Shown: piece after piece, positions 10,661 through 63,508 of the stretch
How the letters are laid out: every line of letters starts with the position of its first letter
Position numbering within the stretch: position 1 is the first letter of the stretch
Sequence record: PZ445511.1
DNA length: 64,000 nt
Source of the DNA: a phage
Reading direction: 5' to 3' (one strand)
Notes under the pieces: model-generated
What the model saw: the letters and a program-made list of their open reading frames with translations, nothing else
Databases searched by the model: none
What the model was told of the DNA's origin: nothing
Position numbers and translations under genes: made by a program

Positions 10661-10684
10661 ATATTTTATAAATTGGAGACACTT

Positions 10685-47308: not shown

Positions 47309-47493
47309 TGGAAACATTACTTCTTGTATTACTAGGCGGCTCACTCTTAACCATCCTAGGCTTGATAATTGTGTGCAGTCGCCTCAATACTAAGAATCTA
47401 GAGTTAATCTGTGAGAATGAAATTCTCAATAATGAACTCTTTCAATATAACATCGCAGCTCATAAACTGTTAGACAAACTGGAGAATATATAA
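47308..47493 (+). CDS. small membrane protein
   Basis: 61 aa. Confidence 0.45.
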   Translation: METLLLVLLGGSLLTILGLIIVCSRLNTKNLELICENEILNNELFQYNIAAHKLLDKLENI

Positions 47494-48098: not shown

Positions 48099-48448
48099 TG
48101 GAACTAGTTACTGAATTTACTATAGGCCACTGCAAGGTGGCTTTTCTTAATGAAAAGTCTTTTAATAACGAAGAAACTATTGGGATCTTTGAAATTAAGG
48201 AGGATGAATATGAACGTGTGGAAAGGCTAGCGTATTTATTCTTTGCTGATGGTCATTTAATGAATGATCTCAAAGAGCTAGTATTTAGGCTGCCAAAAGA
48301 TATACCTTTCACAGCTAGAAACATGTCTCATATTGTTGCTCAACTAAATCTAATATGGATTAAATTAGATCCCGCTATAGATAGAGTCATAACATTAAAA
48401 GAAAGACCAGTTAAAAAATTTACAGGTGATCAAGCCTGTGATATCTAG
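48098..48448 (+). CDS. hypothetical protein
   Basis: 116 aa. Confidence 0.5.
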   Translation: MELVTEFTIGHCKVAFLNEKSFNNEETIGIFEIKEDEYERVERLAYLFFADGHLMNDLKELVFRLPKDIPFTARNMSHIVAQLNLIWIKLDPAIDRVITLKERPVKKFTGDQACDI

Positions 48449-48524
48449 TAATAAAGCATGAGCCTCTACGGAGGCTCTAAAATAAAAAGAAGGTCACAAT
48501 GACCTTAAAAACGAGATATAACTA

Positions 48525-49406
48525 ATGTATAACTTTAAAGATAAACTAAGACAAAATGCTGGTAAAGGAAAAGCTAAAGAGAACAATAATATTCCTAGTG
48601 CTAAAATATTATCTTTTCCTGAACTAACACAGGAAGAAAAAGATAAACTAGCATTTATGTTCGATGCACTTATAGGATTAAGTGGACGCCTATATTCCAC
48701 TCTTAGTATTAATGAGAAACGTCTAGTAGAGATGTTCTGCAAACGTTATCAAGTTACTTCAAAAGGTAACTCTTATAAAGAAGGTGAAAAAGCATTCACA
48801 GTCTTAAAAATCAGTGCGTATGCACATCGTTTCTTAGTTTATGGATTACAGATGGAATACTTCACCCTCCCACCATTTAAATCATTCCATATCTTTGAAG
48901 ATGAACGAATGAATATTGATGATCTTTATGGAGATACGTACAAATATTCAGGAAGCCCATTCCATGATGCATTAAGAAGCTACCCTACTAGTTACCTACC
49001 AGTTAGAGCATCACAAGGCAAAGCTAGCATCTTTGCTGTATACTCAGGATCTAAAGCATCTGATCTAGAAACTTATATATTTAAAGAGCGTAAATCTGCA
49101 ATTCCAGATGAAGCATTATATAATAATCCACTTCTTCCAGAAGAACCGGAGAAAATTGATGTAACTCCCCCAATCCCATCCGAATCTCAATATTTAGTCT
49201 ATGAAAAACAAGTTAAGTTGTCTCTAGACATTGGGTTGGTTACACCGCTTGCTGCAGCATTCATAAATAAGTATCTAGAAATTCCTGACGAGTTCCATGC
49301 ACGTTATAACACGAATATTCAGATCACAGATGAACTAGTTGCATTAGCAAAAGATACACCTACTGACACTGAGGCGTATCAAAAAGCATACCAAGAGTTA
49401 CTGTAA
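48525..49406 (+). CDS. hypothetical protein
   Basis: 293 aa; last gene before the repeat region. Confidence 0.6.
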   Translation: MYNFKDKLRQNAGKGKAKENNNIPSAKILSFPELTQEEKDKLAFMFDALIGLSGRLYSTLSINEKRLVEMFCKRYQVTSKGNSYKEGEKAFTVLKISAYAHRFLVYGLQMEYFTLPPFKSFHIFEDERMNIDDLYGDTYKYSGSPFHDALRSYPTSYLPVRASQGKASIFAVYSGSKASDLETYIFKERKSAIPDEALYNNPLLPEEPEKIDVTPPIPSESQYLVYEKQVKLSLDIGLVTPLAAAFINKYLEIPDEFHARYNTNIQITDELVALAKDTPTDTEAYQKAYQELL

Positions 49407-49789
49407 GATCCTGCAAGTCTCGGTGCACAATACCTGTACCGAGACTCAAATACAAACTCTCGTTGACAGATAACTAAATGTATGTTATCATAACTCTATG
49501 AGTTAATAAAATTAACCATTTAGAGTTGCCACACAGAAGGTGTGGTGGTTCAGGAATCTTAAATTACTGACTTGTAGCGTAGGTTACGGAGCGACAGGAC
49601 AAGTCAACAGGTAATTTAATAAAGATTACTAGAAACATCACGAGACCTTCTGGCGGGGGCAAAGCTCTATATGAGAACCCTGGGGGGATCTTATACTTAT
49701 ATAAAAACTAATACTGTTGAATAGATAAATTAACGTTCAAGATGATACACTCGGTTGCCGCTCATCTGCTAGGATGGCACAACACTTTC

Positions 49790-50110
49790 TTCTAGACTCC
49801 TAAGTTTCTAGGAAAACTCTCGTCAACTCAGGCGGTTTTCATTGTTCCTAGAAACTCTAGCAATAGGCGGTTAATACAGGGCGGTTATAGGGAGGGCGGT
49901 TATTTCTAGGAGTCATTTTTTGAAAACACATTTCTGGAGATTGCTATCGGATTTGCACATTATGTTTCTAGAAATTTATGGTCGGATTTGCACAATTGCC
50001 TAAGTTTTTAGGAACATATAATCTCCCGAAAATAGCAGCATTATTTCGGGCCGAAGGCCCATGATTGCCTGAGTTTTTAGAGCCACAGGAATTTTCACTT
50101 GTCAAGCTAT
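49790..50110 (+). repeat. short direct repeats (GGCGGTT x4; CT[AG]AGTTT[CT]TAG[AG] x5)
   Basis: seen directly in gene-free region upstream of the iteron array. Confidence 0.6.
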
Positions 50111-50546
50111 TTTGCCCCATTTTGCTAATAAAATTTCGCTTTATCTCCCCCAATCTCAATTCTAGCCAAAACATCCCGCATTATCCCCAAAAACGCAGCA
50201 AACCGGTGCTAAAGCACCATCACCGCTGCTCCTTCCGTAGTTACTCCCAAAATCTCATCGGATTCGCACTTCTCCCCAAACTCACACAATCACACACCCT
50301 CCAATCGAAGTCACAAAAATCTTGTCGGATTCGCACACCTTAACACTTGTCGGTTTTGCACATATTCTAGTAAATCCAGCTGGATTGCATCGCAGTTGCG
50401 GATTGCTGGAGTTTTTAGGAAAATTCATTGTCGGATTCGCACACTATAAAAATATTTGCCATCGGATTTGCACACTACCAAAAATTGTCGGATTCGCACA
50501 TGCACGCTGGCACGTAATCCGTGGGGGCAAATGTCGGATTTGCACA
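49947..50546 (+). repeat. iteron-like array: 9 direct copies of 13-bp TCGG(A/T)TT(T/C)GCACA
   Basis: copies start at 49947, 49982, 50258, 50325, 50350, 50431, 50462, 50488, 50534; irregular spacing; no ORF. Confidence 0.85.
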
Positions 50547-50569
50547 AAAGCGCAGGGCAATTTGCCCTG

Positions 50570-50720
50570 CCTGCCGAAATGCGAATGATAATGAGAATGA
50601 TTCTCTTTTGGGAAGTTGAATGATAATGATTCGCATTTGAGAAGTTGAATGCGAATGAGAACAGTTATCATTTGACTACCGGAATACGAATGAGTCGCAT
50701 AATGAGAATGATTTGCATTT
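50570..50720. repeat. AT-rich GAATGA(G/T)AATGA repeat block with partial palindromes
   Basis: gcgaatgataatgagaatgattc, gaatgataatgattcgcattt, cgaatgagtcgcataatgagaatgatttgcattt. Confidence 0.7.
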
Positions 50721-50752
50721 AGAAAGCGAAGTGAGAAACACTGTTATTTAAG

Positions 50753-50761
50753 TTATCCACA
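50753..50761 (+). promoter_or_regulatory. DnaA box (TTATCCACA, perfect)
   Basis: exact 9-mer; two TTATCAACA variants at 50815-50834. Confidence 0.6.
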
Positions 50762-50844
50762 GGTTTATTAACAGCACGATCTGACTTGACAAAATCCTAG
50801 TGATTTTGAGGCGTTATCAACAGACTTATCAACAGGTTATTCTA

Positions 50845-50860
50845 CTGTATATTTATACAG
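50845..50860. repeat. 16-bp palindrome CTGTATATTTATACAG (copy 1)
   Basis: identical copy at 54516-54531. Confidence 0.8.
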
Positions 50861-50893
50861 TATTACTGCGTAGTGAATAACTCTAATATAGCC

Positions 50894-50922
50894 CTAAAAC
50901 GCTCTGTAACTCATTCTAAGCG
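50894..50922 (+). repeat. 29-bp direct repeat CTAAAACGCTCTGTAAC..TTCTAAGCG (copy 1)
   Basis: 27/29 identical to 54943-54971. Confidence 0.8.
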
Positions 50923-51232
50923 ATTTAATTTTGGAGGAGGTATTTTAATAAGGGGAAATTTGAGGAAGGCCAGAAAAAGCGGGGCGCAACTATCGGCCCC
51001 GTTATTATTAGTCTGGTAGTCGATGTGTGATCTTTTCGCTTTCGCCGTAGGAGTCTACCAAATGTTGATAGTAACCATCGTTATCATAAATCACTTTATC
51101 ATAACGCCATCGCTCCTAGAATGAGAATGATTATCAATATCATTGTAAAGCCATTACCAAATCGTAAACGCTGGGAATGTTTCCCAGCGGTATTATTAGA
51201 TTTATGGCTTTGTGTTTTTCGCCACCAGCTAT

Positions 51233-51445
51233 TCACGGTTTTAAATTCTCTATAGTTAATTTTGCGCGAATAGTGATTCCATATAATTCGCCTCCCTTGT
51301 TTCTTACATCAGGTAGCCAGTCCCACAATTCAGGGTATCCGCTTAAAATTCCTAGCGATGCAAGATTAGCAATAAAACCGGCTATAGTAACCGCTTCCAG
51401 TGAAATAGTTACACGATTATTAATAACTAAAGTAAACTTTTTCAT
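51233..51445 (-). CDS. hypothetical protein (cassette gene 8)
   Basis: 70 aa; start overlaps upstream stop (ATGA). Confidence 0.4.
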   Translation of the reverse strand: MKKFTLVINNRVTISLEAVTIAGFIANLASLGILSGYPELWDWLPDVRNKGGELYGITIRAKLTIENLKP

Positions 51446-51786
51446 TGCGACACCTTTCGAAACGCTGTTTCGATACTTTCAGCGGTTGATTGAATATACG
51501 CGCCTTTCATAATCAGGCGCTCTGTACACACTTTGCGGAAAATGTCAATAAATTCATTTTCATTTTCCGCTATTAACGCTTCCCCCATAACCTGAACATC
51601 ACAAGACCCAAAAGTTAAAAATTGAAATGCTAGTTCACGGGCGACAACGGCAGAAATTTTATAATGTGCTTTGCCCTCATAGATATTAACCACGCCTTTA
51701 TAAACTGGTGAAAGCTGATTTAAATAGTTTGCTAATAATGCCGGACGGCAATTAGTTACAAATCGGTTGCCCTCGTAAATTACCAT
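51442..51786 (-). CDS. hypothetical protein (cassette gene 7)
   Basis: 114 aa. Confidence 0.5.
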   Translation of the reverse strand: MVIYEGNRFVTNCRPALLANYLNQLSPVYKGVVNIYEGKAHYKISAVVARELAFQFLTFGSCDVQVMGEALIAENENEFIDIFRKVCTERLIMKGAYIQSTAESIETAFRKVSQ

Positions 51787-51913
51787 CTGCCAACCTCCCT
51801 AGCAAATAGCCAAAACAAATCGAATAAACGCCTAACAGTGCAGGATCACTTTTAAAGTAGGTAGCAATAAAGCCACCAGCAGCACCGAGCAAAATAGAAA
51901 ATAAAGTTTTCAT
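51752..51913 (-). CDS. small membrane protein, 53 aa (cassette gene 6)
   Basis: hand-translated MKTLFSILLGAAGGFIATYF...; below ORF-track cutoff. Confidence 0.35.
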   Translation of the reverse strand: MKTLFSILLGAAGGFIATYFKSDPALLGVYSICFGYLLGRLADGNLRGQPICN

Positions 51914-52122
51914 AATACCCCACGAAACGCAGCGTAAAAGGTGGCAAAGTGTTTAACCGTTTCGGCTACCAAATTGCCGCGCTTGTCAAATTTCTTATCT
52001 GTAACACGGAAAGCGTTTTTGTTGCGTGCTACATATTCGATTTTACAATCTGGACGCTCGAACGTGTTAACATCCACCAGCTTAAAACCTTTGGAACGGG
52101 CAAGGGAAACATTCTTTAACAT
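51910..52122 (-). CDS. hypothetical basic protein (cassette gene 5)
   Basis: 70 aa. Confidence 0.45.
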   Translation of the reverse strand: MLKNVSLARSKGFKLVDVNTFERPDCKIEYVARNKNAFRVTDKKFDKRGNLVAETVKHFATFYAAFRGVL

Positions 52123-52124
52123 TT

Positions 52125-52274
52125 TTATTCCCCTTTACCAGTCATACAGCCTAACAAGTAAGAAAACCCCGCGATACCTGCTCCGATAATAACCACGTGA
52201 ACGCCGAAAGCTATTACAAACAGCGATAAAATAGCGCCCAAGATACTAGCCAGAATAGATCGAAAAATAACCAT
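52125..52274 (-). CDS. small membrane protein, 49 aa (cassette gene 4)
   Basis: hand-translated MVIFRSILASILGAILSLFVIAFGVHVVIIGAGIAGF...; TAGGAGG RBS. Confidence 0.4.
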   Translation of the reverse strand: MVIFRSILASILGAILSLFVIAFGVHVVIIGAGIAGFSYLLGCMTGKGE

Positions 52275-52381
52275 TTTAACGCCTCCTAGAAATTAGGGAA
52301 AATTTTCAGTCCACCGTTTCGGTGTAAAGGCATTATAACAAAAAAGGCCGCCGATTAGGGCGACCTTTACAAAACTTTACA

Positions 52382-52876
52382 TTAGACTATTTCTAATGCT
52401 TCCACACCGAAACAGCGTTTTAGTTCTTTCTGTAAAACGGCATATTCATCCCAACGGGAATTATCAGGAATATAAACAAGCTGTTTTAATCGATTTGCAT
52501 ATAATAACGCCTTGTTACCAATTATTTCCGCGCCACCGTGTTTAATAATTAATTTCATAACGGTATTAATAGGATCGCCGCCATTTACATAAATACCGGA
52601 TTTACTCAATTGATAATGATAAATACTCGCATAAACATTATCATTTTCAATCCATTCCCCTGTTTCTTCATCTTCTTCCCCATCACTACCGAAACGAGAA
52701 GCATTATCATATGCGTGTTCGTTTGCGAAAGCGTCCAGATCACAGCCAGCGGGAACAAAATGTTCCTCCGTCCAGCCTTCCCCACAATAGCCAGTGTGAC
52801 AATCAACTAAAACGATCATATCGTGTTTAGCTTCATTCACACTTTCTAGAGAAAAGCCATATTTTTCTTCTGACAT
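52382..52876 (-). CDS. hypothetical acidic protein (cassette gene 3)
   Basis: 164 aa, Asp/Glu-rich central segment. Confidence 0.55.
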   Translation of the reverse strand: MSEEKYGFSLESVNEAKHDMIVLVDCHTGYCGEGWTEEHFVPAGCDLDAFANEHAYDNASRFGSDGEEDEETGEWIENDNVYASIYHYQLSKSGIYVNGGDPINTVMKLIIKHGGAEIIGNKALLYANRLKQLVYIPDNSRWDEYAVLQKELKRCFGVEALEIV

Positions 52877-52889
52877 AACTAGACTCCTA

Positions 52890-53198
52890 TTAATTAGCAG
52901 GGAAATAAAGAGAATTTGCTACACTGTAAAATACTTTATTTAAGAAAATTACGTCATCACGGACTATTTCATCCATTCCATAATCCAGCAAAGTTTCGTC
53001 TACAAAAATACATAGCCAGCCATAACCACGATCAAAGAAAGCATGATAATTATTAGCGCTTTCTACATGTTCCCATAAAAAGGGACGGCCTTGTTTTTCC
53101 CATATAGGAATATTGCTTTGATCGTCCGAATAATTAACATGGGGGCTATTCGGCATTTTTTCGGCTAATTGCGTCAACATGATTTGATTCAGTTGCAT
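52890..53198 (-). CDS. hypothetical protein (cassette gene 2)
   Basis: 102 aa. Confidence 0.5.
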   Translation of the reverse strand: MQLNQIMLTQLAEKMPNSPHVNYSDDQSNIPIWEKQGRPFLWEHVESANNYHAFFDRGYGWLCIFVDETLLDYGMDEIVRDDVIFLNKVFYSVANSLYFPAN

Positions 53199-53264
53199 AA
53201 TAAGTAGTCTCCTAACAATTAACAGGGAAATAGTAAAGCGGGAAATAATCCCCGCTAGTAATTA

Positions 53265-54266
53265 TTACTCTGTTTCGGCGCTTTGGGTAAAGGTAGAAAT
53301 GTCAATGCCTTTTACCATTTCATCGATCATTTCAGCAATATTGAAACTCTGTACCATTTCCAGCATTGCCGCTTCCATTGCCGCGCCTGCTACCGCTTTC
53401 GCTTTCTGATTAGTCGGGGCGTACTGGTCAACCGCTACGCTTAACAGGTTAGCGATCACTACGCGACCAATCGGAGTATCAATATAACCTTTAATCATAA
53501 ACGGCGCTTTTTTCGCCGCTACTTTTGTGATTTGAGTCAGTGCAATTTTACCCGCTTCCAGTTTTGCAGCATTTACAACAGCGGATTTATTAGCAGCAAC
53601 GATAGAAGATACTTTAGTCATGATATTTCCTTTATTTTCAGTAGTTTGCGCATTTGCGCTTGAAGTTTGAGAGTTTACAGCCTGTTTTGTTACGTTGTCA
53701 ACTGGTTTTAGTGTAAATCCAGCATTTGCAACGTTTGATTCATTCCCATAACATAAATAATCGTCAGGGATCAACATGTTACCGCTAGCGCGTTCAAAAC
53801 ATAATACGCCAGTTGTTTCGATTGCGTCACTATCCGCACCTTTATAGCTTGACGATAATTCCCGCCAGATACTATTTAATAACGATCCGACACTATCCAG
53901 TCTGATATTATTTATTTTTGTTGCTGTTACCTGCTCTTTTTCTTGCACGTTATATAATCGCGCAATGTAACCACTATGAGACTCACTATAACCAACAATG
54001 ATAAAATCAATATCAGTTCCCCGACTATTACGGAAAATGTGATAATCACGGTTGAAAATTACTAGCGCCCTTGTCTGGTCTAGTAATAGCGTGAAATCAT
54101 CGACTGAATAATGAGTATCATTATTATCTAAAATTTCATCGTGAATCTTTTCAACCATTGCCGCCGTATGTTGTACGCTTGCCGCACTACTACCATCTAG
54201 CAGGTTGCGCAAACTACCCTTAATAATAGTGGCGTTTGCTGGTACTGCAATTCTTACAGTAGACAT
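53265..54266 (-). CDS. hypothetical protein (cassette gene 1)
   Basis: 333 aa; Ala/Lys-rich C-terminal third; no recognisable motif. Confidence 0.6.
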   Translation of the reverse strand: MSTVRIAVPANATIIKGSLRNLLDGSSAASVQHTAAMVEKIHDEILDNNDTHYSVDDFTLLLDQTRALVIFNRDYHIFRNSRGTDIDFIIVGYSESHSGYIARLYNVQEKEQVTATKINNIRLDSVGSLLNSIWRELSSSYKGADSDAIETTGVLCFERASGNMLIPDDYLCYGNESNVANAGFTLKPVDNVTKQAVNSQTSSANAQTTENKGNIMTKVSSIVAANKSAVVNAAKLEAGKIALTQITKVAAKKAPFMIKGYIDTPIGRVVIANLLSVAVDQYAPTNQKAKAVAGAAMEAAMLEMVQSFNIAEMIDEMVKGIDISTFTQSAETE

Positions 54267-54454
54267 TTCTTTGTCTCCCTCGTTAATCAGTGAGTGAATG
54301 ATATAGATAATTGTTCGCTAGGGGCAAGAAAAAAGAAAAGGTTTTTTATTCCTTGCCTACTGCCCGTTTTTATGATAATCGCGCGTTTTCTATTTCTAGC
54401 TCTCTGTAAGCGTACACAAGGCTTTATTATAATAAGGGTCACACTGAGAAAACC

Positions 54455-54474
54455 GTCTAGAATCGATTCTAGAC
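54455..54474. promoter_or_regulatory. 20-bp perfect palindrome GTCTAGAATCGATTCTAGAC (operator-like)
   Basis: exact inverted repeat in divergent control region. Confidence 0.7.
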
Positions 54475-54515
54475 GCCTTAAAATCGACATCCTTATAATA
54501 TGCTACCAGTTTACC

Positions 54516-54531
54516 CTGTATATTTATACAG
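54516..54531. repeat. 16-bp palindrome CTGTATATTTATACAG (copy 2)
   Basis: identical to 50845-50860. Confidence 0.8.
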
Positions 54532-54553
54532 TAGGATAACCTGTATATAAGTC

Positions 54554-54611
54554 TGTGGATAAGTCCTCATATAGTCGCCTATTACGTCAAGTTATTTTGT
54601 GCTGTGGATAA
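54554..54611 (-). promoter_or_regulatory. two perfect DnaA boxes (TGTGGATAA at 54554-54562 and 54603-54611)
   Basis: exact reverse-complement 9-mers 41 bp apart; third 8/9 box at 54888-54896. Confidence 0.6.
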
Positions 54612-54942
54612 CTTTGGGGATAAGTTAAATGATAGTGGTTCTCACTTAGCCCGATAGTTTCTCATAGTTATTATTTCCCATTAATTTATGTGTATATTAT
54701 ATATTATGAAATAGTTAGTTGGCTAATAGGATTTTCCGTGATTAATAGTCTGCTAATGATAACGCATGTTTCAATCCACCAGCGTGATTATCATCCTAGC
54801 AACTATTAGAGTGCTAATGACCTGATACACGTCCAGACTTATTTGTCAATGAAAAATAACAGCAGAAAATACTTTTTTGAAAAATCAAGTGGATAACTCA
54901 TTAAATTTCATTTTTGCTTTTTGTATAAGTTATTAACAGGGT

Positions 54943-54971
54943 CTAAAACGCTCTGTAACGCGTTCTAAGCG
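54943..54971 (+). repeat. 29-bp direct repeat (copy 2)
   Basis: 27/29 identical to 50894-50922. Confidence 0.8.
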
Positions 54972-55374
54972 CCTTTGATGAAAAGCTATCCCATCATAAG
55001 GGGAGGTGTCCGAAAACCTCACCACGAGGATTTTAGATTTTGTCAAGTAGGCAAGAGCAGAAATAAATGAAAAAATTACTTGCTAAACTGCTTATTTGTG
55101 TGTTATTCGTGCGCCCGTTTCATTAAATTTAGTGCGCCGCTGGACGTGGTGCGGTGGCGTTTGTCTTTACGTTTCTTTACAAAAATAAGGTTGCGCCCTT
55201 CTCGGTATTCTCCTATTATTTATCACGTAGGGCGGCAATGACGAACTACACGGCGGGGATAACAGCGATTGACAGTCTGTTTGACCTTTCAAAACCCTGC
55301 CATGCTCTTTAAAAATTAGGGAACATCTTAAAGCCTATCGGCGGTAAACTTAGATATTATAAGGAATCGACGAT

Positions 55375-55584
55375 ATGAAACAAACGCTTTTGATCACTGG
55401 CAAGCCTATCAAGTCACTTGATAGCAGAACAAAAAATTTGTTGACAGTAGCGCAACGATCTGTAAAATACAGATTCAAGCAATACAAGAAAGGCAAGCAA
55501 CAAGGGCTGGAAATGGTGTGGCGTAATATAATGATTGATTTATATAACTCATATCAAATAGAAAAAAGTTTAAAAAACGCTTGA
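55375..55584 (+). CDS. hypothetical small basic protein (may be spurious)
   Basis: 69 aa; contains internal TTGACA-16-TAAAAT promoter-like motif. Confidence 0.3.
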   Translation: MKQTLLITGKPIKSLDSRTKNLLTVAQRSVKYRFKQYKKGKQQGLEMVWRNIMIDLYNSYQIEKSLKNA

Positions 55585-55609
55585 CACGCTAGCCGATAGG
55601 TTTTAAGAT
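55581..55609 (+). promoter_or_regulatory. putative promoter (TTGACA-17-TAAGAT)
   Basis: consensus -35 with weaker -10. Confidence 0.35.
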
Positions 55610-55815
55610 GTTCCCTAGTTTTTAAAGAGTGATAACTTGATAAAATTTGACGGTCGGCACTTACCATAATGTGCCCCGCCCCCTAACTGGGATATAGCGG
55701 CCCGCGTGGAGTTCTTTAAATTTATTATATTGGCTAGCGGATTATAATCTAATAGCGTTTCAAAGTATCGAGGCGCTATTGTGGAATAATCCCCCAATAA
55801 ACCGGAGTATTAAAA

Positions 55816-56067
55816 ATGCAAAACGTTATCACCGCACCGAAAGTAGGTCAATCCGTTTTTATTCCTTTCGTTACTAAAACGGATGAATTAACTGGAAAAG
55901 CTGAACGTATTAAAGGTGCGGCGCTTGATCCCTTTGATAAAATTGAAGCGGTATACGCGGAAACGGAACGCAGTAACAACGGCAAGCCAATTTATAACGT
56001 TCGCGTTAAATCTGGCGACGTTGTAAAAATCATTCAGAAAGATGATAAATGGCAAGCTATTAGCTAA
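55816..56067 (+). CDS. hypothetical protein
   Basis: 83 aa. Confidence 0.5.
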   Translation: MQNVITAPKVGQSVFIPFVTKTDELTGKAERIKGAALDPFDKIEAVYAETERSNNGKPIYNVRVKSGDVVKIIQKDDKWQAIS

Positions 56068-56166
56068 TTAGTGTTACTTTTATATTCCCCTGAAATATGG
56101 GGAATATATGGATTAACATTAGTTAATCATAATCCCTTAATTAATAATTGAATGGAGTATTAAATT

Positions 56167-56583
56167 ATGTCTAACGTTAAAACCGAAAAAACCGCAAAAT
56201 TCTCTTGGAACGAAGAAAACACCGAAAAGGCTGTTTCTATGTATTCTGAAATGGTCGCTAAAAGCGGAATTGAATTTGCTAACAGTGACGGCTTGAAAGA
56301 AATCGCCGCCGCCGTTGGTGCTGCTAGTCCGGTGTCTGTACGTTCTAAATTGACCAGTGCAAAAGCCTACCAGAAAAGCGACAAGCCGCGTAAAGTTGGC
56401 GGCGGTAGCTCTGTCCGTAAAGCTCACTATGTGCGCGTCATTGCTAAACATGCCATTGATAGCGGCATTGTAAAAGACGCTGACGATCTGGCAAGTCTGG
56501 AAAGTGCTAAACTGGAAACACTGGACGCCGTAGCGCAATTATTAGGCGTAGCGGAGGAAGTAAAACAGGCCGCAGGTGAATAA
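56167..56583 (+). CDS. A2: pre-early A2-like protein
   Basis: 138 aa immediately upstream of A1-like gene; assignment by size and position only. Confidence 0.4.
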   Translation: MSNVKTEKTAKFSWNEENTEKAVSMYSEMVAKSGIEFANSDGLKEIAAAVGAASPVSVRSKLTSAKAYQKSDKPRKVGGGSSVRKAHYVRVIAKHAIDSGIVKDADDLASLESAKLETLDAVAQLLGVAEEVKQAAGE

Positions 56584-56633
56584 ATTTTAATTAGCGGGGA
56601 ATATTCCCCGCTAACCCTTAAAGGAGAATAATC

Positions 56634-56861
56634 TTGATCTTTTATCCTAGCGAAGCGTTTATTTTAGGTTTATTTATTATTGCCGCTATATTTATATTTA
56701 ATTACGGCAAATATATAATTTCTATTATCGGCATTAATTCAGCTTATGCCGCTGATATGTTTAAACGTCAAGCTAATAAACAAAAATATCTGGCGATTAT
56801 ATTTTTAACGCTGGCTATTAGTTGCGGTTTTAGTTCTAGTCTTATGCCAATTCTAGAATAA
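56634..56861 (+). CDS. small membrane protein
   Basis: 75 aa. Confidence 0.4.
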   Translation: MIFYPSEAFILGLFIIAAIFIFNYGKYIISIIGINSAYAADMFKRQANKQKYLAIIFLTLAISCGFSSSLMPILE

Positions 56862-56969
56862 TATTGCAAATTATAACGCCTTTTAAATTGTCCTCACTTC
56901 AGGCAAGGCGTTATATTTGGCAATATTGCCAGTATTAATATTTATCCCTTTAATGGAGTTAATTAACTT

Positions 56970-58634
56970 ATGAATATTTCCGCAGAAAAACAAGCTCAAA
57001 TTTTGAAAATGGCCGCAGATTTTAACTTCTACGGTAAGCGTTTACGCGCTACTAAATTGGAAGTTTGCGACGATATTTCAAAAGCTGTTTATGATACGCC
57101 GAAACATTCAACCGCAATTTGTGATTGGCTGGAAGCAAACAAGCCAGCGAAACCGAAAGCGGCAAAAGCTGAAAAGGCGATTAAAAATGATGATCGCCCC
57201 GAAGCGGCGGGAATTGTTTCTAGTACCGTTGAACAATGGGAAGTTAAATCCGGTCGCCGTTTTATTCTAACGTCGATTCAAAATAATACTTTCCCTCATA
57301 AAAACTTTTTAGCAAGTCTAGAAAAATTCGCTGAATATTGCGGCGCTGAATTGCTGATTAGTAAATTCATTTATAATAAAAATGGATTCCAGAACGGGGA
57401 AGGGGCAAACGGTATTAAATACGATCCCGCATTTGATAAATATGTTTGTGATAAAAACGTATTTTTAAATAACCGCCGCTTTGCTTTCATGGCTGAAATT
57501 AACGTTTTGCCAACGGCAGATTATCCGCTTTCAGGATTCGCAGAAACTGCCACCGCTTTAAATATTGAAGGTCTGGCAATTGGTCACGCAAAAATTACCG
57601 CCGAAAGCGTGCCAGCTTTAAAAGGTGAAGTAGTGCGCCGTATGTATTCAACCGGAACGGCTACACTTAAAAACTATATTCAGCAGAAAGCAGGTCAAAA
57701 AGCTGAGGCTTTACATAATTACGGCGCTTTGCTGGTAGAATTTGACGACGACGGCGAATTTTTCGTGCGCCAGCTTGAAACAATGGACGAAAGCGGAATG
57801 TTCTATGATCTGAATATTTGCGCCACTCCTAGCGGTTGCAAAGAAATTACCGGACACATTTTAGGCTTACAATATGGCGATATTCACGCCGAAAAATTAG
57901 ATGATGAATGCGCCGTCGCTTCATGGGCTAGTGAAAATTCATTGCTTGATATTCTTAAACCGAAATATCAGTTTATTCATGATGTGCATGATTTTACATC
58001 GCGTAACCATCACAACCGCGCTAGTGGTGTATTCCTTGCTAAACAGTACGCCGCAGGACGTGATAAAGTTATTGATGATCTCATTGATACCGGTCGCGTG
58101 TTGGAATCTATGGAACGTGAATTTAGTCAAACAATCATTGTGGAATCCAACCATGATTTAGCTCTTTCACGCTGGCTTGATGATCGTAACGCAAACATTA
58201 AGGACGATCCCGCAAACGCCGAGCTATACCACAGCCTAAACGCTGCGATTTACGCCGCAATTGCAAAACAAGATGATACCTTTAACGTATTGGATTACGC
58301 GCTTAGAAACGTTGCAGGTTGCGAATTTAACGCTATTTTCCTGACTACTGACCAGTCATTTAAAATCGCTGGCATTGAATGTGGCGTACATGGTCACAAC
58401 GGCATTAATGGCAGTCGGGGCAATCCTAAACAGTTTAAAAAGTTGGGACGCCTTAACACTGGTCACACTCACACGGCTAGCATATACGGCGGCGTTTATA
58501 CCGCTGGCGTTGCTGGTAGTCTCGATATGGGTTACAACGTGGGCGCGTCAAGCTGGACGCAAACGCATTTAATTACCTATGCAAACGGGCAACGTACTTT
58601 GATTGATTTCAAAAACGGTAAATTCTTTGCATAA
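56970..58634 (+). CDS. A1: pre-early A1-like metallophosphoesterase
   Basis: 554 aa; phosphoesterase motifs GDIHAE, HDVHD, HTHT; size fits my recollection of T5 A1. Confidence 0.6.
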   Translation: MNISAEKQAQILKMAADFNFYGKRLRATKLEVCDDISKAVYDTPKHSTAICDWLEANKPAKPKAAKAEKAIKNDDRPEAAGIVSSTVEQWEVKSGRRFILTSIQNNTFPHKNFLASLEKFAEYCGAELLISKFIYNKNGFQNGEGANGIKYDPAFDKYVCDKNVFLNNRRFAFMAEINVLPTADYPLSGFAETATALNIEGLAIGHAKITAESVPALKGEVVRRMYSTGTATLKNYIQQKAGQKAEALHNYGALLVEFDDDGEFFVRQLETMDESGMFYDLNICATPSGCKEITGHILGLQYGDIHAEKLDDECAVASWASENSLLDILKPKYQFIHDVHDFTSRNHHNRASGVFLAKQYAAGRDKVIDDLIDTGRVLESMEREFSQTIIVESNHDLALSRWLDDRNANIKDDPANAELYHSLNAAIYAAIAKQDDTFNVLDYALRNVAGCEFNAIFLTTDQSFKIAGIECGVHGHNGINGSRGNPKQFKKLGRLNTGHTHTASIYGGVYTAGVAGSLDMGYNVGASSWTQTHLITYANGQRTLIDFKNGKFFA

Positions 58635-58686
58635 TTAAATTTAATCGGCGGTTGAAATATACCGCCATTAATAAAAGGTTTATTAA

Positions 58687-58965
58687 ATGGCTAGTAAAAT
58701 TAATATATCTATCCCTGATAGCAATTGTTTAGAAGATATTGCATGGTCTGAAATGTCTTTTGATAGTTGCGTTTATTTAGTTACCCGTGGAATGTACGCG
58801 GGAATGTACGCCGTATGGGATAGTAATATTGGCGAAAATATGATCTTTTTCGGAAAAGATTCTATTCAGGTAATGACAGGCGATTACCTTAATCAAGAAA
58901 GGAAAGACGGCGACGAAACATATTTTCGTAAAACTGATTTATCTTTAAATGTATTTTTTCAATAA
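58687..58965 (+). CDS. hypothetical protein
   Basis: 92 aa. Confidence 0.5.
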   Translation: MASKINISIPDSNCLEDIAWSEMSFDSCVYLVTRGMYAGMYAVWDSNIGENMIFFGKDSIQVMTGDYLNQERKDGDETYFRKTDLSLNVFFQ

Positions 58966-58997
58966 ATCCCGTAATTAAATAATCTGGAGTCATAAAC

Positions 58998-59390
58998 ATG
59001 AAAAACCAAAACATTCCTTTTGATCGTGCTACTTCTTCCATCGTTCTAGTTTATTCTAATGGCGAACGTTATCACGTCGAAGCGGGGCAAGTTAATTTCG
59101 ATTTGCTGAATTATAACGACGCTTTGCAGGTTACTACCTTTGCTTATGATACCGGCAAAGTGGCAAGCCATACGAAAGCAAAAGGCGTTTACGCTGATAC
59201 TTTGACAGTGCAAACAATCATTATTGATGCGCTTAAATCCGGTCTAGCGTTTGCGGTTGTTAAGCCGTGTCCGGTCTGCAATCCCGAAGCTAGCGCAATG
59301 GTTTATACTTGCGCGGGTATCCGTTCTAGCGTACATGGTGAAGATCTTTCCTTTATCGGTGACGCGCTAGCGTATGGCCTCACTAACTAA
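58998..59390 (+). CDS. hypothetical protein
   Basis: 130 aa. Confidence 0.5.
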   Translation: MKNQNIPFDRATSSIVLVYSNGERYHVEAGQVNFDLLNYNDALQVTTFAYDTGKVASHTKAKGVYADTLTVQTIIIDALKSGLAFAVVKPCPVCNPEASAMVYTCAGIRSSVHGEDLSFIGDALAYGLTN

Positions 59391-59477
59391 TAGTTAATTG
59401 AACATTGCCAGCTAATCTAATATAATTAGCTGGCAAGATTGAATTAACCTAAATCCCTTAAATGGAGAATGTAACAA

Positions 59478-60212
59478 ATGAATCAAGTCAACATGAATAT
59501 TACCCGCACTTTCCCGCATATTTCCCGCGTTATGATTTGGGATTTAGACGGGACAATCATTAATTCATTCCATCGTGTAGCGCCTTGCTTTGATGATAAC
59601 GGGAATTTAGATTTAAATAAGTATTCCCGCGAAGCCTGCAAACATGAATTAATTATGCAGGATTCCTTATTACCATTGGTTGAATATATGCGCCAATGTA
59701 TGAATGATCCCAATACCTTAAACCTTATTTGTACCGCTCGCTTAATGGGTAAATCTGATTATTATTTCTTGCGTAAACAAAGTCTAAGAGGGCGCGGAAA
59801 TAGTAATATTCGCGTATTTTCCCGCGATACATTACATAAATACTTTGATGCAAATAAGGTTAGTGAAATATATCACAGCAAAGACGCAGTATATAAAAGC
59901 TATTACTTTGAACTGTTTAAACAGCTATATCCTAACGCTGATTTTACGATGATTGATGATCATAAAGGCGTATTATCAGCAGCAGCAAACGCAGGATTTA
60001 AAACGCTGGACGCTCAAGCTGTTAACGATATCCTATCAATTGGGGTAACATTGATTGGTGAAACCTTTATTGATGAATCGCTTGATGATGATAACGATTA
60101 TCAATTCCTAGCCGAACGTTTAAAAATGTGTTGGGAAGGTATGACCGAGGAAGAACGCGCAGAATATAGTACCACTCCGCAACAGTTCATCGACAAATTA
60201 AAAGTTGCCTAA
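59478..60212 (+). CDS. dmp: HAD-superfamily phosphatase, 5'-deoxyribonucleotidase-like
   Basis: 244 aa; HAD motif IWDLDGTI; size fits T5 Dmp. Confidence 0.6.
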   Translation: MNQVNMNITRTFPHISRVMIWDLDGTIINSFHRVAPCFDDNGNLDLNKYSREACKHELIMQDSLLPLVEYMRQCMNDPNTLNLICTARLMGKSDYYFLRKQSLRGRGNSNIRVFSRDTLHKYFDANKVSEIYHSKDAVYKSYYFELFKQLYPNADFTMIDDHKGVLSAAANAGFKTLDAQAVNDILSIGVTLIGETFIDESLDDDNDYQFLAERLKMCWEGMTEEERAEYSTTPQQFIDKLKVA

Positions 60213-60375
60213 CAATTAAAAATAAAATAGTCACACTGTGTAATGATAACATGGTGTGACTATTAGCTTGCTAAGTACCGGGGCGGTAATGAGACTCATT
60301 CTCATCTGTGGAACCTCTGGGCACACCTTCATGTGTAATCTTATGAAATTTCGAGAATTGGTAATTAGCGCTAAC

Positions 60376-60621
60376 TTAGGAAGAACACCGGTCTACTGGC
60401 TTGTCTCCTGATTCTGACATACGAAATCTCCTCCGCGACGCCCGAGATCCATCCGACCACTCTCGCTCAAACTCCGCACGTTTCTCCGCAAACTTCCGCT
60501 CCCTTTCCGAAAGCTCCCGCGATACTCCCGCAATATATTCACGATGCTTATTAATCGCCCCGAGTGTTCCGAAGATTCCCGCAAGTACCCCGATAATGAA
60601 GATAGCTACAAAGCTAAACAT
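60376..60621 (-). CDS. small membrane protein
   Basis: 81 aa with N-terminal TM. Confidence 0.45.
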   Translation of the reverse strand: MFSFVAIFIIGVLAGIFGTLGAINKHREYIAGVSRELSERERKFAEKRAEFEREWSDGSRASRRRFRMSESGDKPVDRCSS

Positions 60622-60808
60622 CTAATTCCCTCTCAAGTTGGTGAATACGTGCCCGATCATTACGTTGGGAGTCCAGTAACTTATCCATATTAATGTTTAG
60701 TTGGGTGACTTTATCCTCTAGCCGCTGTATACGATTACGATGTGACGTCATATATCCAACAATCCAGACAAGCCATACTACAAGTGTAATAAGTCCTAGC
60801 CAATCCAT
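60614..60808 (-). CDS. small membrane protein
   Basis: 64 aa with N-terminal TM. Confidence 0.45.
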   Translation of the reverse strand: MDWLGLITLVVWLVWIVGYMTSHRNRIQRLEDKVTQLNINMDKLLDSQRNDRARIHQLERELDV

Positions 60809-60912
60809 TATTTATCTCCCCGCAGCTTACGTTCGATATGAGCTAAGTGGTTATCTAAAATGCACTGCCCGATAATTACCACAACTAGTAAAGCAATAAT
60901 TACTACTTCCAT
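60809..60912 (-). CDS. small membrane protein (34 aa)
   Basis: hand-translated MEVVIIALLVVVIIGQ...; abuts downstream gene. Confidence 0.3.
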
Positions 60913-61376
60913 TATAACCACCCCGCCATAGCTGCTAACCAAAAGAGTACAAAGATAAAGAATAACACAGTCCCGAATCCGAAACTATTTATCCAACTTT
61001 CGTACACTTCCCCGCGTCTGTTCTTTCTTCTGTTGTCGCCTGACATCTCTTTGCTTCTCCTGTAAGTCCGGTATTTGGAATACCCTAGCAAATTGCACGA
61101 ACCATTATGACTGTCCCGATAAGATCCATTACTTCGTCGAAGCCGGATTCTTCTAGTAAGAAGGATGTTCCCATCACGTCTTCTATTGTATCTTCTATGA
61201 CGTCTTGAATGATTTCATCAATTGCATCATGTATTGCTTTTTAGTCCTGGGATCTATTTCAAAGTTAACAGGTTCCTGAAAGGACTTTTCTTCATCTTGC
61301 ATTGTGTTTGCTACCTGTACCTCATCCCAGAAATAAAAATTTTTGTTTACTTCGAGATCTTTTTACTTTATACTAA

Positions 61377-61643
61377 TTACAAGTGACCAGATTGTTCTAG
61401 TTTAAATTTGCAATCGCCATATTTGAGATCAAACTGTGACAGATCCCACCACCCAAACTTAGTGCGTAACTGAGTTTTAGGGAATCGATAGCCCACAGTA
61501 CGTGCTTCTCGAATATCTAAAGCATAGTGTTCTTCACCAACATGACCATAAGACTTCACGTATGCCTTACAGAACGGCTTAGGAGCTGGTACACAACCAG
61601 TCAACACTACTGCTGCAACTACGATAGCTAGTAACTTTTTCAT
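61377..61643 (-). CDS. llp: Llp-like lipoprotein (candidate receptor-blocking superinfection-exclusion protein)
   Basis: 88 aa; signal peptide with lipobox LTGC; divergent from and adjacent to RBP gene. Confidence 0.55.
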   Translation of the reverse strand: MKKLLAIVVAAVVLTGCVPAPKPFCKAYVKSYGHVGEEHYALDIREARTVGYRFPKTQLRTKFGWWDLSQFDLKYGDCKFKLEQSGHL

Positions 61644-61726
61644 AATCGTTCCTCTGTTTAATTTATAAATATATTATAGCAAAATAGAGGGATCTAAGCA
61701 AATACATTTTTAAAGAAGGAGATTGT

Positions 61727-63508
61727 ATGAGTTTTTTCGCAGGAAAATTTAGTGATGGTAAAACTGTATTATCTCTAAACGCTGCTAATGGTGGTGATAT
61801 AAATCAGCACTACTCTCCAAATACTAATAGTATCTTCCACTCAGATATGCCATTTGTCCTAGTTGATGGGACTTACGAGGCTGCTCTAGGTGATGCAGGT
61901 AATGGGTATTTTGTTACTCAGATGCCTTGGGATATTATAAACATTAAATCCAATGATCCTGGTAGAGTTATATTAACTGCTATTGAGATAAATGGTACTC
62001 ATAGGGGTTTCCTTAATGGTACACAATCTCAGGTTGGCCAGTTCTTATCATTCTTTGAAGACCAACCACGTGCTGGTGCTGAATTATCTGTAACATCTGC
62101 TTTTGCTATCGGTGATAGTTTAGCTCATGGTACCTATATCTATAATGGTGGTCTTGGCCATGAGGAATCTATTGCTCGGCAAGGTTCTGGAGGCAGTTTA
62201 CTACAGTCCTCTGGTTTCCAGATCTTTAGACCTGGTGGTGTTTCTGCTGGTGAAGCCATTGCCAGAGCCTGGAGTCTTATGGGTTTTCCAACTGGTGTCT
62301 CTACTGTTCCTTTAGATGGTGGTAACGCAGATTATTGGGATCCTAACTGGCAGGCGCCTATTGGTTCTGCTGGTAGAGGCCATGATTGGTTTTATGTTTG
62401 TAGTTCTAATATTCGTGGCTTCGCAGGTAAAAAAGGCGTACTACCAGATAACGTAAACATTAACTACCAATCCCCCTCCTTTCCTACTAAAGTATACGTT
62501 TGTAGGGGTTCTACAACTAATATGGCTGCGCAAGCCACTAGAAAGGTGTATGTACAGGACTGGTACAACGTTACGCCAACTAAGGTTATTTGGTATGTAC
62601 TAAATCTGCGCTATTCTAATGGTAGTATGGGAGTTTCTGGTAATCCATTTACCGGTTCAGATATCCTAATATCTCCATCTAACTTTACTATTAAAGGTGT
62701 TAGCCTACCAAATACAGGCTATAAATTTATCAACCAGAATGCTTTCGGAAACTTAGGCTATCGCCCTGATATGGAGTATGTTGGTAATAACGCTGCGTAT
62801 ACCGGAGTTTTTGGTGATAATACTGCACGATGTGAATTTATCGGCTCTAGTAATGGTGGGTTGTGGTCGCCCGTTAACTATGGGGGTGCAGCTTCCCAAA
62901 TTAGCCTATATAAATTTGGTGTAGGTAAACAATGGTATGTAGATACTAATACCAACTCCATCGGTAATGAACATGGACCTGTGTGGAGTCCTAGTACTGT
63001 ACCCCTCAGGTTATTTCCAGGCAACGTTGCAAGTACTTATGTTGGTGATGATATAACTCCTTCCTACCCTGGTGCTGGTGACTTCTATACACCTTTGGCC
63101 ACTGTTTGGTTAGGATTACCTAATGCTCACTCTACCGTTATATTAACTACTGAAGTTATTATGGGTAATCTTAATACTGCTGGAATGCCTGTGCGTACTT
63201 ACGGCGGTAGCGCTTGGCAGGTACAAGGTAGACGTCAACAAAGTTATACAGCTGGTGATGGTGTATTCCATCAGATTCTTACTCTGCCACCTGGATATCT
63301 AGTACCTTATCACAGTACAACTTCCTATAGTTATACACAAACTTGGGCTAGTAGGCCAGATGAGTTTGCTTTCCGTAGGAACGGATATATTTATACTATT
63401 AAAAACCTTGGTAATGGCAACGTTGAATTGGGTGTTATCATTCACGCTGCGGAAGCGGCGGCTGTTTTCTTGCCAAGACTACGTGTAACAGTTCAACGCC
63501 TAACCTAA
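61727..63508 (+). CDS. oad: receptor-binding tail protein, pb5-like
   Basis: 593 aa; N-terminus MSFFAGK and C-terminus QRLT match my recollection of T5 pb5; Gly/Asn-rich. Confidence 0.6.

What the first reader, a model, noticed from the sequence alone, without database searches (positions are those of the whole stretch)
49407..61376. Pre-early-type block lies between the early region and llp/oad: probably a collapsed terminal repeat
As I recall T5, the dmp/A1/A2 block lies in a roughly 10-kb direct terminal repeat at the genome ends. Here about 11 kb carrying the equivalent genes and an injection-stop-like repeat region sits internally, with early genes on one side and the Llp-like/pb5-like pair on the other. 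That is what a single collapsed copy of the repeat in a circularised assembly would look like, so this window may span the physical genome ends.
Basis: inference. Interest (0 to 1): 0.45.

Follow-up and report, generated by a model that had tools for sequence, protein, structure and literature searches.

The report
Collapsed T5-type terminal repeat, boundaries refined
This is the ordinary, well-known long terminal repeat of a T5-like Salmonella phage, present once because the two end copies were merged into a circular-looking sequence; the true genome ends map to window positions 50080 and 60322.

Summary
The window comes from a T5-like Salmonella phage (genus Epseptimavirus). It is 99.5% identical over the flagged block to phage S147, whose record is circular, 111,447 bp, with one repeat copy.

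In relatives deposited with both repeat copies, or opened at an end (T5, vB_SenS-3, EscoHU1, SIY1lw, BF23, NBSal002, NBSal005, Seabear, KKP_3831 and others), the repeat boundaries or record ends map within 4 bp to window 50080 and within 1 bp to 60322. One copy flanked by both unique ends cannot be virion DNA. It is the collapsed, concatemer-like form.

The true repeat is 50080-60322 (10,243 bp), not 49407-61376. The first 673 bp are a unique non-coding spacer. The last 1,054 bp are unique DNA with four small membrane-protein genes and a pseudogene.

For the relative SIY1lw the same collapse is documented: a 113,831-bp SPAdes contig plus a 10,101-bp repeat gives the 123,932-bp genome.

This is already known biology and a routine assembly artefact, so interest is low. 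Read depth was not testable here.

The parts
48525..49406 (+). Homologue of T5.018, the last gene of the unique early region before the repeat. It is flanking DNA, not part of the repeat.
   Evidence: 90.5% aa identity to T5.018 over 294 aa; phrog_8583. In T5, T5.018 lies 717 bp inside the end of the left repeat.
49407..50079 (.). Unique non-coding spacer just outside the repeat. It holds a hairpin after the T5.018-homologue stop (49416-49446) and two of the nine TCGGATTYGCACA repeats (49947, 49982). It is about 90% identical to T5.
   Evidence: Outside the annotated repeat in T5, vB_SenS-3, EscoHU1 and SIY1lw. Repeats. Conservation profile.
50080..60322 (.). Predicted long direct terminal repeat (first-step-transfer, pre-early region), 10,243 bp, present as one collapsed copy. 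In the window's orientation the virion DNA is predicted to start at 50080 and end at 60322.
   Evidence: Boundary mapping from four annotated full-length relatives and from records that begin or end at the homologous bases. Single copy in the window.
49947..50546 (+). Array of nine direct repeats TCGGATTYGCACA, equivalent to the nine DRD repeats of T5 Repeat Region 3. It straddles the repeat end: two copies outside, seven inside.
   Evidence: 12 matches in the window against 2.1 expected, nine of them here. Davison 2020, bioRxiv 10.1101/866236. The T5 major nick at 9748/9749 maps to 50549/50550.
50578..50730 (+). Second repeat family, AATGAGAATGATT, including a 29-nt tandem unit. It lies in the injection-stop region. 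Several related GenBank records were opened here.
   Evidence: The rokbiter record starts at about window 50616 and ends at about 50651.
50726..50860 (.). Inverted-repeat arm equivalent to T5 IRD'-spacer-IRC', with two pairs of DnaA-type boxes: TTATCCACA-ggt-TTATTAACA and TTATCAACA-gac-TTATCAACA.
   Evidence: Architecture as described for 25 T5-like phages.
54516..54650 (.). Partner inverted-repeat arm equivalent to T5 IRC-spacer-IRD (Repeat Region 2), with two pairs of DnaA-type boxes on the minus strand: TTATCCACA-gac-TTATATACA and TTATCCCCA-aag-TTATCCACA.
51442..54266 (-). Leftward pre-early gene cluster:
- T5.015 homologue, 51442-51786.
- T5.014 homologue, 51910-52122.
- T5.013 homologue, about 52128-52274.
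- A 164-aa ORF, 52382-52876, absent from T5.
- A 102-aa ORF, 52890-53198, absent from T5.
- T5.011 homologue (DUF7566), 53265-54266.
   Evidence: 88%, 91%, 62% and 57% identity to T5.015.014.013 and .011. (phrog_4379, phrog_6741, phrog_4263, PF24450). The 164-aa ORF is 98% identical to EscoHU1_011.
55305..55629 (.). 38-nt inverted repeat, 95% complementary (55305-55342 / 55592-55629), in the central non-coding and promoter region between the divergent pre-early clusters. It brackets the T5.008 homologue (55375-55584).
   Evidence: By its position it probably corresponds to T5 Repeat Region 1 (inference).
55816..60212 (+). Rightward pre-early gene cluster:
- T5.007 homologue, 55816-56067.
- A2, 56167-56583.
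- T5.005 homologue, 56634-56861.
- A1, 56970-58634.
- A 92-aa ORF, 58687-58965.
- T5.002 homologue, 58998-59390.
- dmp, 59478-60212.
   Evidence: 80%, 89%, 44%, 90%, 73% and 88% aa identity to T5.007, A2, T5.005, A1, T5.002 and dmp. (phrog_1745 DNA transfer protein; phrog_1725 DNA-binding protein). (the 92-aa ORF is 98% identical to EscoHU1_003).
60323..61376 (-). Unique DNA between the repeat and llp:
- T5.162 homologue, 60376-60621.
- T5.161 homologue, 60614-60808.
- T5.160 homologue, about 60811-60912.
- T5.159 homologue, about 60915-61037.
- A stop-riddled remnant of an EscoHU1_155-like gene, 60988-61302.
This DNA is not part of the repeat.
   Evidence: In T5 these four small membrane-protein genes precede the right repeat. 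tblastn. phrog_6447.
61377..63508 (.). llp-like receptor-blocking lipoprotein (61377-61643, -) and pb5-like receptor-binding protein (61727-63508, +). They belong to the late region of the unique DNA and are flanking.
   Evidence: phrog_1119, phrog_4815. S147 annotation: 'T5 Llp-like', 'T5 Pb5-like'. oad is only 29% identical to T5 pb5.

Best explanation
The window is part of a T5-like (Epseptimavirus) phage genome written in collapsed, circular form. In the virion, the 10,243-bp segment 50080-60322 is predicted to occur twice, once at each end of a linear genome of roughly 120 kb.

Short-read assemblers merge the two identical copies. The single copy then ends up joined on one side to the last early gene (T5.018 homologue) and on the other to the T5.159-162 / llp / oad end of the late region. 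This is also the arrangement expected at a junction in replicative concatemers.

Functionally, the segment is the first-step-transfer DNA. By analogy with T5, the dmp-side end (60322) enters the cell first. Entry pauses in the repeat-rich injection-stop region (about 50.1-51.1 kb). The pre-early genes (dmp, A1, A2 and small ORFs) are expressed from the central divergent promoter region, and A1/A2 then allow the rest of the genome to enter.

Shown here: gene content, repeat anatomy, single copy in the window, and boundary homology. Inferred: duplication in this isolate's virions, and the injection behaviour.
For: 1. The block is 99.5% identical to Salmonella phage S147, a 111,447-bp 'circular' record with one copy.
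2. It is fully colinear, in reverse orientation, with T5.001-T5.021 and T5.156-T5.162.
3. Repeat boundaries annotated in T5, vB_SenS-3, EscoHU1 and SIY1lw map to window 50080/50076 and 60322/60323. The flanking sequences are near-identical: 99.8% over 600 nt for vB_SenS-3 at the iss side and 96.5% for EscoHU1 at the dmp side.
4. NBSal002 and NBSal005 start at the homologue of 50080. The BF23 repeat (9,743 bp, PhageTerm) ends there. KKP_3831 and Seabear start at the homologue of 60322, and NBEco002 does by a 2-nt extension of its match.
5. Only about 1 in 10 related records hold these end segments twice (428 places in 390 records; 304 in 278), so single-copy deposition is the norm.
6. SIY1lw: a 113,831-bp SPAdes contig was re-organised with PhageTerm into 123,932 bp with 10,101-bp repeats.
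7. The injection-stop anatomy matches Davison 2020: nine DRD repeats and an inverted pair carrying eight DnaA-type boxes in four 3-bp-spaced pairs.
8. There is no second copy in the window.
Against: - There are no reads, so neither the twofold depth nor the read-start peaks could be checked for this isolate.
- Boundaries are transferred by homology. vB_SenS-3 differs by 4 bp at one end and T5 by 1 bp at the other, so the ends are good only to a few bases.
- The window covers 64 kb only, so the rest of the source sequence and its declared topology are unseen.
- The collapsed form cannot be told apart from a genuine concatemer or circular junction by sequence alone.
Confidence: 0.93

Rival explanations
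1. The single internal copy is the true virion arrangement. On this view the isolate has lost the terminal duplication, for example through a circularly permuted, headful-packaged genome, and the pre-early block is simply an internal region.
For: Most related GenBank records, including the closest (S147, 'circular'), show the block once and internally. Nothing in the sequence alone proves duplication.
Against: Every relative whose ends were determined has the block at both ends, with boundaries mapping to the same bases. The sequences around both boundaries are nearly invariant from T5 to this phage. The first-step-transfer genes and injection-stop anatomy, which presuppose a terminal position, are intact. 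The single-copy records are explained by assembler collapse, as documented for SIY1lw.
Confidence: 0.02
2. The sequence is not an assembly artefact. It is a real molecule: a junction in replicative concatemers or a circular intracellular form, sampled for example from infected cells or a metagenome, where one repeat copy naturally separates successive genomes.
For: The arrangement unique-right / repeat / unique-left is what is expected at a concatemer junction of a direct-terminal-repeat phage (general knowledge of T7/T5-type packaging). The sequence cannot distinguish the two origins.
Against: Short-read assemblies of purified virions give the same product, and this is the common origin of such records. 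This rival changes nothing about the identity, boundaries or function of the element.
Confidence: 0.04
3. The whole flagged block 49407-61376 (about 12 kb) is the terminal repeat.
For: The block is bounded by clear gene ends. The TCGGATTYGCACA repeats extend to 49947, left of 50080.
Against: In T5, vB_SenS-3, EscoHU1 and SIY1lw the homologues of 49407-50079 and of 60323-61376 (the T5.159-162 genes) lie outside the annotated repeats and occur once. Records that start at the termini start at the homologues of 50080 or 60322.
Confidence: 0.01

Closest known systems
Terminal repeats of Escherichia phage T5 (AY543070: 1-10219 and 111532-121750), the first-step-transfer DNA with dmp, A1, A2 and the injection stop signal
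   Same: - Same gene order and orientation (dmp ... A1 ... A2 ... central non-coding region ... T5.011-T5.015 ... iss).
- Same neighbours: T5.018 on one side, and T5.159-162, llp and oad on the other.
- Same boundary sequences.
- Same repeat anatomy: nine DRD repeats and an inverted pair with eight DnaA-type boxes.

   Different: - 10,243 bp against 10,219 bp.
- No homologue found of the HNH endonuclease hegG (T5.010), T5.012 or T5.016. T5.017 is only a remnant.
- The T5.003 position holds an unrelated 92-aa ORF.
- Two extra ORFs (164 and 102 aa).
- Proteins are 44-91% identical.
- Here only one copy is written, internally.
Salmonella phage S147 (NC_048012 / MH370386), Epseptimavirus S147
   Same: 99.5% nucleotide identity over the whole block. 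Same single-copy, internal placement in a record declared circular, 111,447 bp.
   Different: About 100 mismatches and a few indels over the block and its flanks, including roughly 80-100 bp extra in S147 near window 51100-51116. The window is therefore a close relative, not necessarily the same isolate.
Full-length Epseptimavirus records with both repeat copies: vB_SenS-3 MT004791 (9,455 bp), EscoHU1 LC659915 (9,914 bp), vB_SalS-SIY1lw PP105779 (10,101 bp)
   Same: Same repeat ends to within 0-4 bp when mapped to the window. Same flanking genes.
   Different: They are written as linear virion genomes with the repeat at both ends. Repeat length varies by several hundred bp because the small pre-early ORF content differs.
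Short direct terminal repeats of T7/T3-type phages
   Same: Same principle: exact ends, terminal duplication, twofold read depth, and collapse with an arbitrary start point in assemblies.
   Different: 131-231 bp in T3/T7 against about 10 kb here. They have no two-step DNA entry and no genes inside the repeat (general knowledge of T7).

Membership tests
T5-type long direct terminal repeat / first-step-transfer region (Demerecviridae, Markadamsvirinae) | Carries the pre-early genes dmp, A1 and A2 in the conserved order | tested here: met
   88%, 90% and 89% aa identity to T5.001, T5.004 and T5.006, colinear with T5. PHROG matches for A1 and A2.
T5-type long direct terminal repeat / first-step-transfer region (Demerecviridae, Markadamsvirinae) | Non-coding injection-stop region with the conserved repeat architecture: nine DRD repeats, and the IRD'-spacer-IRC' / IRC-spacer-IRD inverted pair with eight DnaA-type boxes in 3-bp-spaced pairs | tested here: met
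   Nine TCGGATTYGCACA copies at 49947-50546. Inverted pair at 50726-50860 / 54516-54650. Three box pairs found by pattern (0.03 expected) plus a fourth read directly from the sequence. Architecture as in Davison 2020.
T5-type long direct terminal repeat / first-step-transfer region (Demerecviridae, Markadamsvirinae) | Boundaries coincide with the determined genome termini of relatives | tested here: met
   Four annotated records map to 50080 (50076) and 60322 (60323). NBSal002, NBSal005 and BF23 agree at one end; KKP_3831, Seabear and NBEco002 at the other.
T5-type long direct terminal repeat / first-step-transfer region (Demerecviridae, Markadamsvirinae) | Adjoins the T5.018 side of the early region at one boundary and the T5.159-162 / llp / oad side of the late region at the other | tested here: met
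   The intergenic distance from the dmp stop to the T5.162-homologue stop is 163 bp here, against 123 + 41 bp across the two T5 ends.
T5-type long direct terminal repeat / first-step-transfer region (Demerecviridae, Markadamsvirinae) | Physically present twice, at both ends of the virion DNA (twofold read depth, read-start peaks, end-terminating long reads) | not testable with these tools
   No reads are available and the window holds one copy only. Duplication is inferred from relatives.
T5-type long direct terminal repeat / first-step-transfer region (Demerecviridae, Markadamsvirinae) | Two-step DNA entry that pauses at the injection stop signal and needs A1 and A2 to resume | not testable with these tools
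   This is an experimental property, known for T5 and BF23. Here it is inferred from conserved genes and repeats.

The most novel reading that the evidence does not exclude
Two sequence blocks are nearly invariant from T5 (Tequintavirus) to this Epseptimavirus. One is a ~115-nt block spanning the iss-side terminus (about 50027-50140). The other is a ~30-nt block lying immediately outside the dmp-side terminus (about 60321-60350). In SIY1lw the second block is kept even though the sequence just beyond it diverges where that phage carries an extra gene. These blocks could be the cis-acting signals that tell the packaging machinery where to cut and so define the long terminal repeat. I found no description of such signals in the papers I searched.
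Probability: 0.3. Interest if true: 0.3.

Novelty: already known. Interest (0 to 1): 0.07.

Why it matters
The value is practical rather than scientific.
- It tells an annotator that the source sequence is about 10.2 kb shorter than the virion genome.
- The biologically meaningful start is at 60322 (T5 convention) or 50080.
- The roughly 15 genes inside 50080-60322 are diploid in the virion.
- 'Circular' topology for such a record is an assembly convention.
- The four small membrane-protein genes next to llp are not pre-early genes.

No new biology is implied.

Tried and rejected
- I looked for a motif shared by the two cut sites, in direct or inverted orientation, within 60 nt on either side. 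Only GAAATTT(C) recurs, at different distances from the cut and imperfectly in this phage, so it is not convincing.
- The sigma-70 promoter scan of the block gave 50 sites against 38 expected and was not informative. The terminator scan gave plausible hairpins but nothing bearing on the question.
- Pfam found nothing for dmp, A1, A2, Llp or pb5. PHROGs and direct comparison with T5 did. The PHROG label 'polynucleotide kinase' for dmp is only a family label.
- The single consensus DnaA box pattern TTWTNCACA is not enriched in the window as a whole (9 found against 7.5 expected). Only the paired arrangement is significant.
- The motif CCTRAGTTTTTAG, which ends exactly at the 50080 cut, is barely enriched (11 against 4.5 expected; 3 of 100 shuffles reach 11).
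- A literature search for T5 terminase cut sites returned nothing relevant.
- Searches failed for technical reasons.
- I considered that rokbiter and gmork, which start near window 50616-50657, mark a different terminus. I rejected this: those records are opened inside a tandem repeat, and the start and end of the rokbiter record overlap by about 35 nt (one repeat unit), which is typical of an arbitrary circularisation point.

Full report
**What the window is.**
The flagged block (49407-61376) is 99.5% identical to Salmonella phage S147. That phage is an Epseptimavirus (Demerecviridae, Markadamsvirinae) whose record is 111,447 bp, declared circular, and holds the block once. The block also matches 556 phage records, mostly T5-like Salmonella and Escherichia phages. 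The S147 annotation and a tRNA scan show what lies left of the block: ribonucleotide reductases, thymidylate synthase, 28 tRNA genes, lysis genes and many small ORFs, all on the + strand. This is the T5-type early region. The window runs in the reverse orientation of the standard T5 map.

**Check of the observation.**
tblastn with T5 proteins gives a complete, colinear match.
- dmp: 59478-60212, 88% aa identity.
- T5.002: 58998-59390.
- A1: 56970-58634, 90%.
- T5.005: 56634-56861.
- A2: 56167-56583, 89%.
- T5.007, T5.008 and T5.009 follow on the + strand.
- On the - strand come T5.011 (53265-54266, Pfam DUF7566), T5.013, T5.014 and T5.015.

PHROGs agrees for A1 (DNA transfer protein), A2 (DNA-binding protein), Llp (Cor-type exclusion protein) and pb5 (receptor-binding tail protein). 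Pfam is silent on most of these proteins.

On the left, the 293-aa ORF ending at 49406 is the T5.018 homologue (90.5%), preceded by T5.019-T5.021 homologues. On the right lie llp (61377-61643, -), oad (61727-63508, +) and the T5.156 homologue.

**The injection-stop-like region.**
The 1.7 kb from 49407 to about 51100 has no convincing ORF and is dense with repeats.
- Nine same-strand copies of TCGGATTYGCACA lie at 49947-50546. The window has 12 matches against 2.1 expected, and no shuffle reaches 12.
- An AATGAGAATGATT family with a 29-nt tandem unit lies at 50578-50730.
- A ~135-bp segment at 50726-50860 is repeated in inverted orientation at 54516-54650.
- Each arm carries two pairs of DnaA-type boxes spaced by 3 bp:
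  - TTATCCACA-ggt-TTATTAACA
  - TTATCAACA-gac-TTATCAACA
  - TTATCCACA-gac-TTATATACA
  - TTATCCCCA-aag-TTATCCACA
- Three of these pairs match a strict pattern expected 0.03 times in the window.

This is the architecture Davison described for T5 and 24 relatives: nine DRD repeats, and IRD'-spacer-IRC' with its partner IRC-spacer-IRD carrying eight boxes in pairs (bioRxiv 10.1101/866236). A global alignment with T5 9100-10950 shows about 90% identity over much of this non-coding DNA. It also places the T5 major nick (9748/9749) at window 50549/50550, just after the last DRD copy.

**Where the repeat really begins and ends.**
T5 (AY543070) annotates the left repeat as 1-10219 and the right repeat as 111532-121750. 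T5.018 lies 717 bp inside the unique region. oad, llp and four small membrane-protein genes (T5.159-162) lie just before the right repeat.

Three Epseptimavirus records deposited with both copies were fetched:
- vB_SenS-3, repeat 9,455 bp.
- EscoHU1, repeat 9,914 bp.
- SIY1lw, repeat 10,101 bp.

The annotated copies are identical to each other in T5, EscoHU1 and SIY1lw. Those of vB_SenS-3 fell out of register in the ungapped comparison, so its two copies were not verified as identical.

Probes of 600 nt centred on each annotated boundary map as follows.
- The iss-side boundary maps to window 50079|50080 for T5, EscoHU1 and SIY1lw, and to 50075|50076 for vB_SenS-3.
- The dmp-side boundary maps to 60322|60323 for vB_SenS-3, EscoHU1 and SIY1lw, and to 60323|60324 for T5.

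Independent records agree.
- NBSal002 and NBSal005 begin at the base homologous to 50080.
- The BF23 record aligns so that its 9,743-bp repeat, determined with PhageTerm (PMC10644984), ends at 50080.
- KKP_3831 and Seabear (annotated 'repeat region predicted by PhageTerm') begin at the base homologous to 60322. NBEco002 does so after a 2-nt extension of its match, and 8sent65 is one base off.

The predicted repeat is therefore 50080-60322, 10,243 bp.
- Left overshoot: a unique, conserved, non-coding spacer holding two of the nine DRD copies.
- Right overshoot: unique DNA with homologues of T5.162.161.160 and .159, plus a stop-riddled remnant of an EscoHU1_155-like gene.

**Why this means a collapsed copy.**
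In every full-length relative, the T5.018 side touches the repeat at one end of the linear genome. The T5.162/llp/oad side touches the other copy at the opposite end. A single copy joined to both unique ends, as in this window, cannot be a piece of virion DNA. It is also the arrangement expected at a concatemer junction.

The window has no second copy of any part of the segment beyond short internal repeats. The collapse is routine.
- The 151-nt end segments occur as 428 places in 390 records and as 304 places in 278 records. About nine in ten related records therefore hold them once.
- For SIY1lw the paper states that SPAdes gave a 113,831-bp contig, which PhageTerm re-organised. The deposited genome is 123,932 bp with 10,101-bp repeats, exactly one repeat longer.
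- The PhageTerm paper states that the region between the termini of such phages shows twice the average coverage, and that assemblers place the first base arbitrarily (PMC5557969).

**How it works (inferred from T5 and BF23).**
In the virion the DNA would start at 50080 and end at 60322 in window orientation. In the T5 convention the left end is 60322. That end enters first, and transfer pauses in the repeat-rich region at about 50.1-51.1 kb. The pre-early genes are transcribed divergently from the central non-coding region (about 54.3-55.8 kb). A1 and A2 are needed for the rest of the DNA to enter. None of this was tested here.

**What was not resolved.**
Read depth and read-start peaks for this isolate are unavailable, so duplication is inferred from relatives, and the ends are good only to a few bases. 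No motif common to the two cut sites was found.

**Side observation.**
The sequence around both ends is unusually conserved between T5 and the Epseptimavirus members.
- About 115 nt spanning the iss-side cut are nearly invariant.
- About 30 nt immediately outside the dmp-side cut are nearly invariant, while the DNA just inside that cut is diverged in T5.
- In SIY1lw the similarity to the other phages ends right after the 30-nt block, which is kept. That phage carries an additional small gene in this interval.

These blocks are candidates for the end-cutting signals. That is speculation.

**Verdict.**
The feature is the well-known T5-type long terminal repeat in the usual collapsed representation. 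Novelty: already known. Interest: low.

Noticed in passing
window 50027-50140 and 60321-60350: The sequence around both predicted genome ends is nearly invariant between T5 and four Epseptimavirus sequences. About 115 nt span the iss-side cut. About 30 nt lie just outside the dmp-side cut, whereas the DNA just inside that cut is diverged in T5. In SIY1lw, similarity to the others ends right after the 30-nt block, where that phage carries an extra small gene. These blocks may be end-cutting signals.
   Followed up: partly
window 60988-61302 (- strand): Remnant of a 104-aa gene that is intact in EscoHU1 (EscoHU1_155) and vB_SenS-3, located between llp and the T5.159 homologue. Here it is broken by stop codons and a frameshift, and it is not annotated in S147.
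   Followed up: partly
window 17822-17895 (+): One of the 28 tRNA genes has the anticodon TCA. ARAGORN labels it tRNA-SeC and the S147 record labels it tRNA-Sec. It could be an opal-suppressor-type tRNA.
   Followed up: no
window about 50616-50657; loci L004 (rokbiter), gmork: Several related GenBank records (rokbiter, gmork and others in the same series) are linear records opened inside the terminal repeat, within the 29-35-nt tandem repeat of the injection-stop region. In rokbiter the start and end overlap by about one unit. Their position 1 is therefore not a physical end.
   Followed up: partly
window 52382-52876 and 52890-53198 (- strand); 58687-58965 (+): Three ORFs inside the repeat (164, 102 and 92 aa) have no T5 counterpart. 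The 164-aa and 92-aa ORFs are conserved in EscoHU1 (98%). Conversely, hegG (HNH endonuclease), T5.012 and T5.016 of T5 have no homologue in the repeat here. The accessory pre-early gene content is thus variable.
   Followed up: partly
window about 51100-51116: The alignment to S147 breaks here. S147 carries roughly 80-100 bp more at this point, next to a copy of the AATGAGAATGATT repeat. This is either real length variation or an assembly difference in repetitive DNA.
   Followed up: no
window 61727-63508 (+) and 61377-61643 (-): The receptor-binding protein is only 29% identical to T5 pb5, and the llp gene gives no tblastn match to T5 Llp. It falls in the Cor-type exclusion family instead. 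This fits the use of a receptor other than FhuA, as in BF23-like phages.
   Followed up: no
window 1-4000 (- strand), by homology to S147 47348-51648: The S147 annotation places two Sir2-like (NAD-dependent deacetylase) genes and an anaerobic ribonucleotide reductase on the opposite strand at the start of the window. NadR-like and PnuC-like NAD salvage genes lie further in, at about 20.4-22.2 kb.
   Followed up: no
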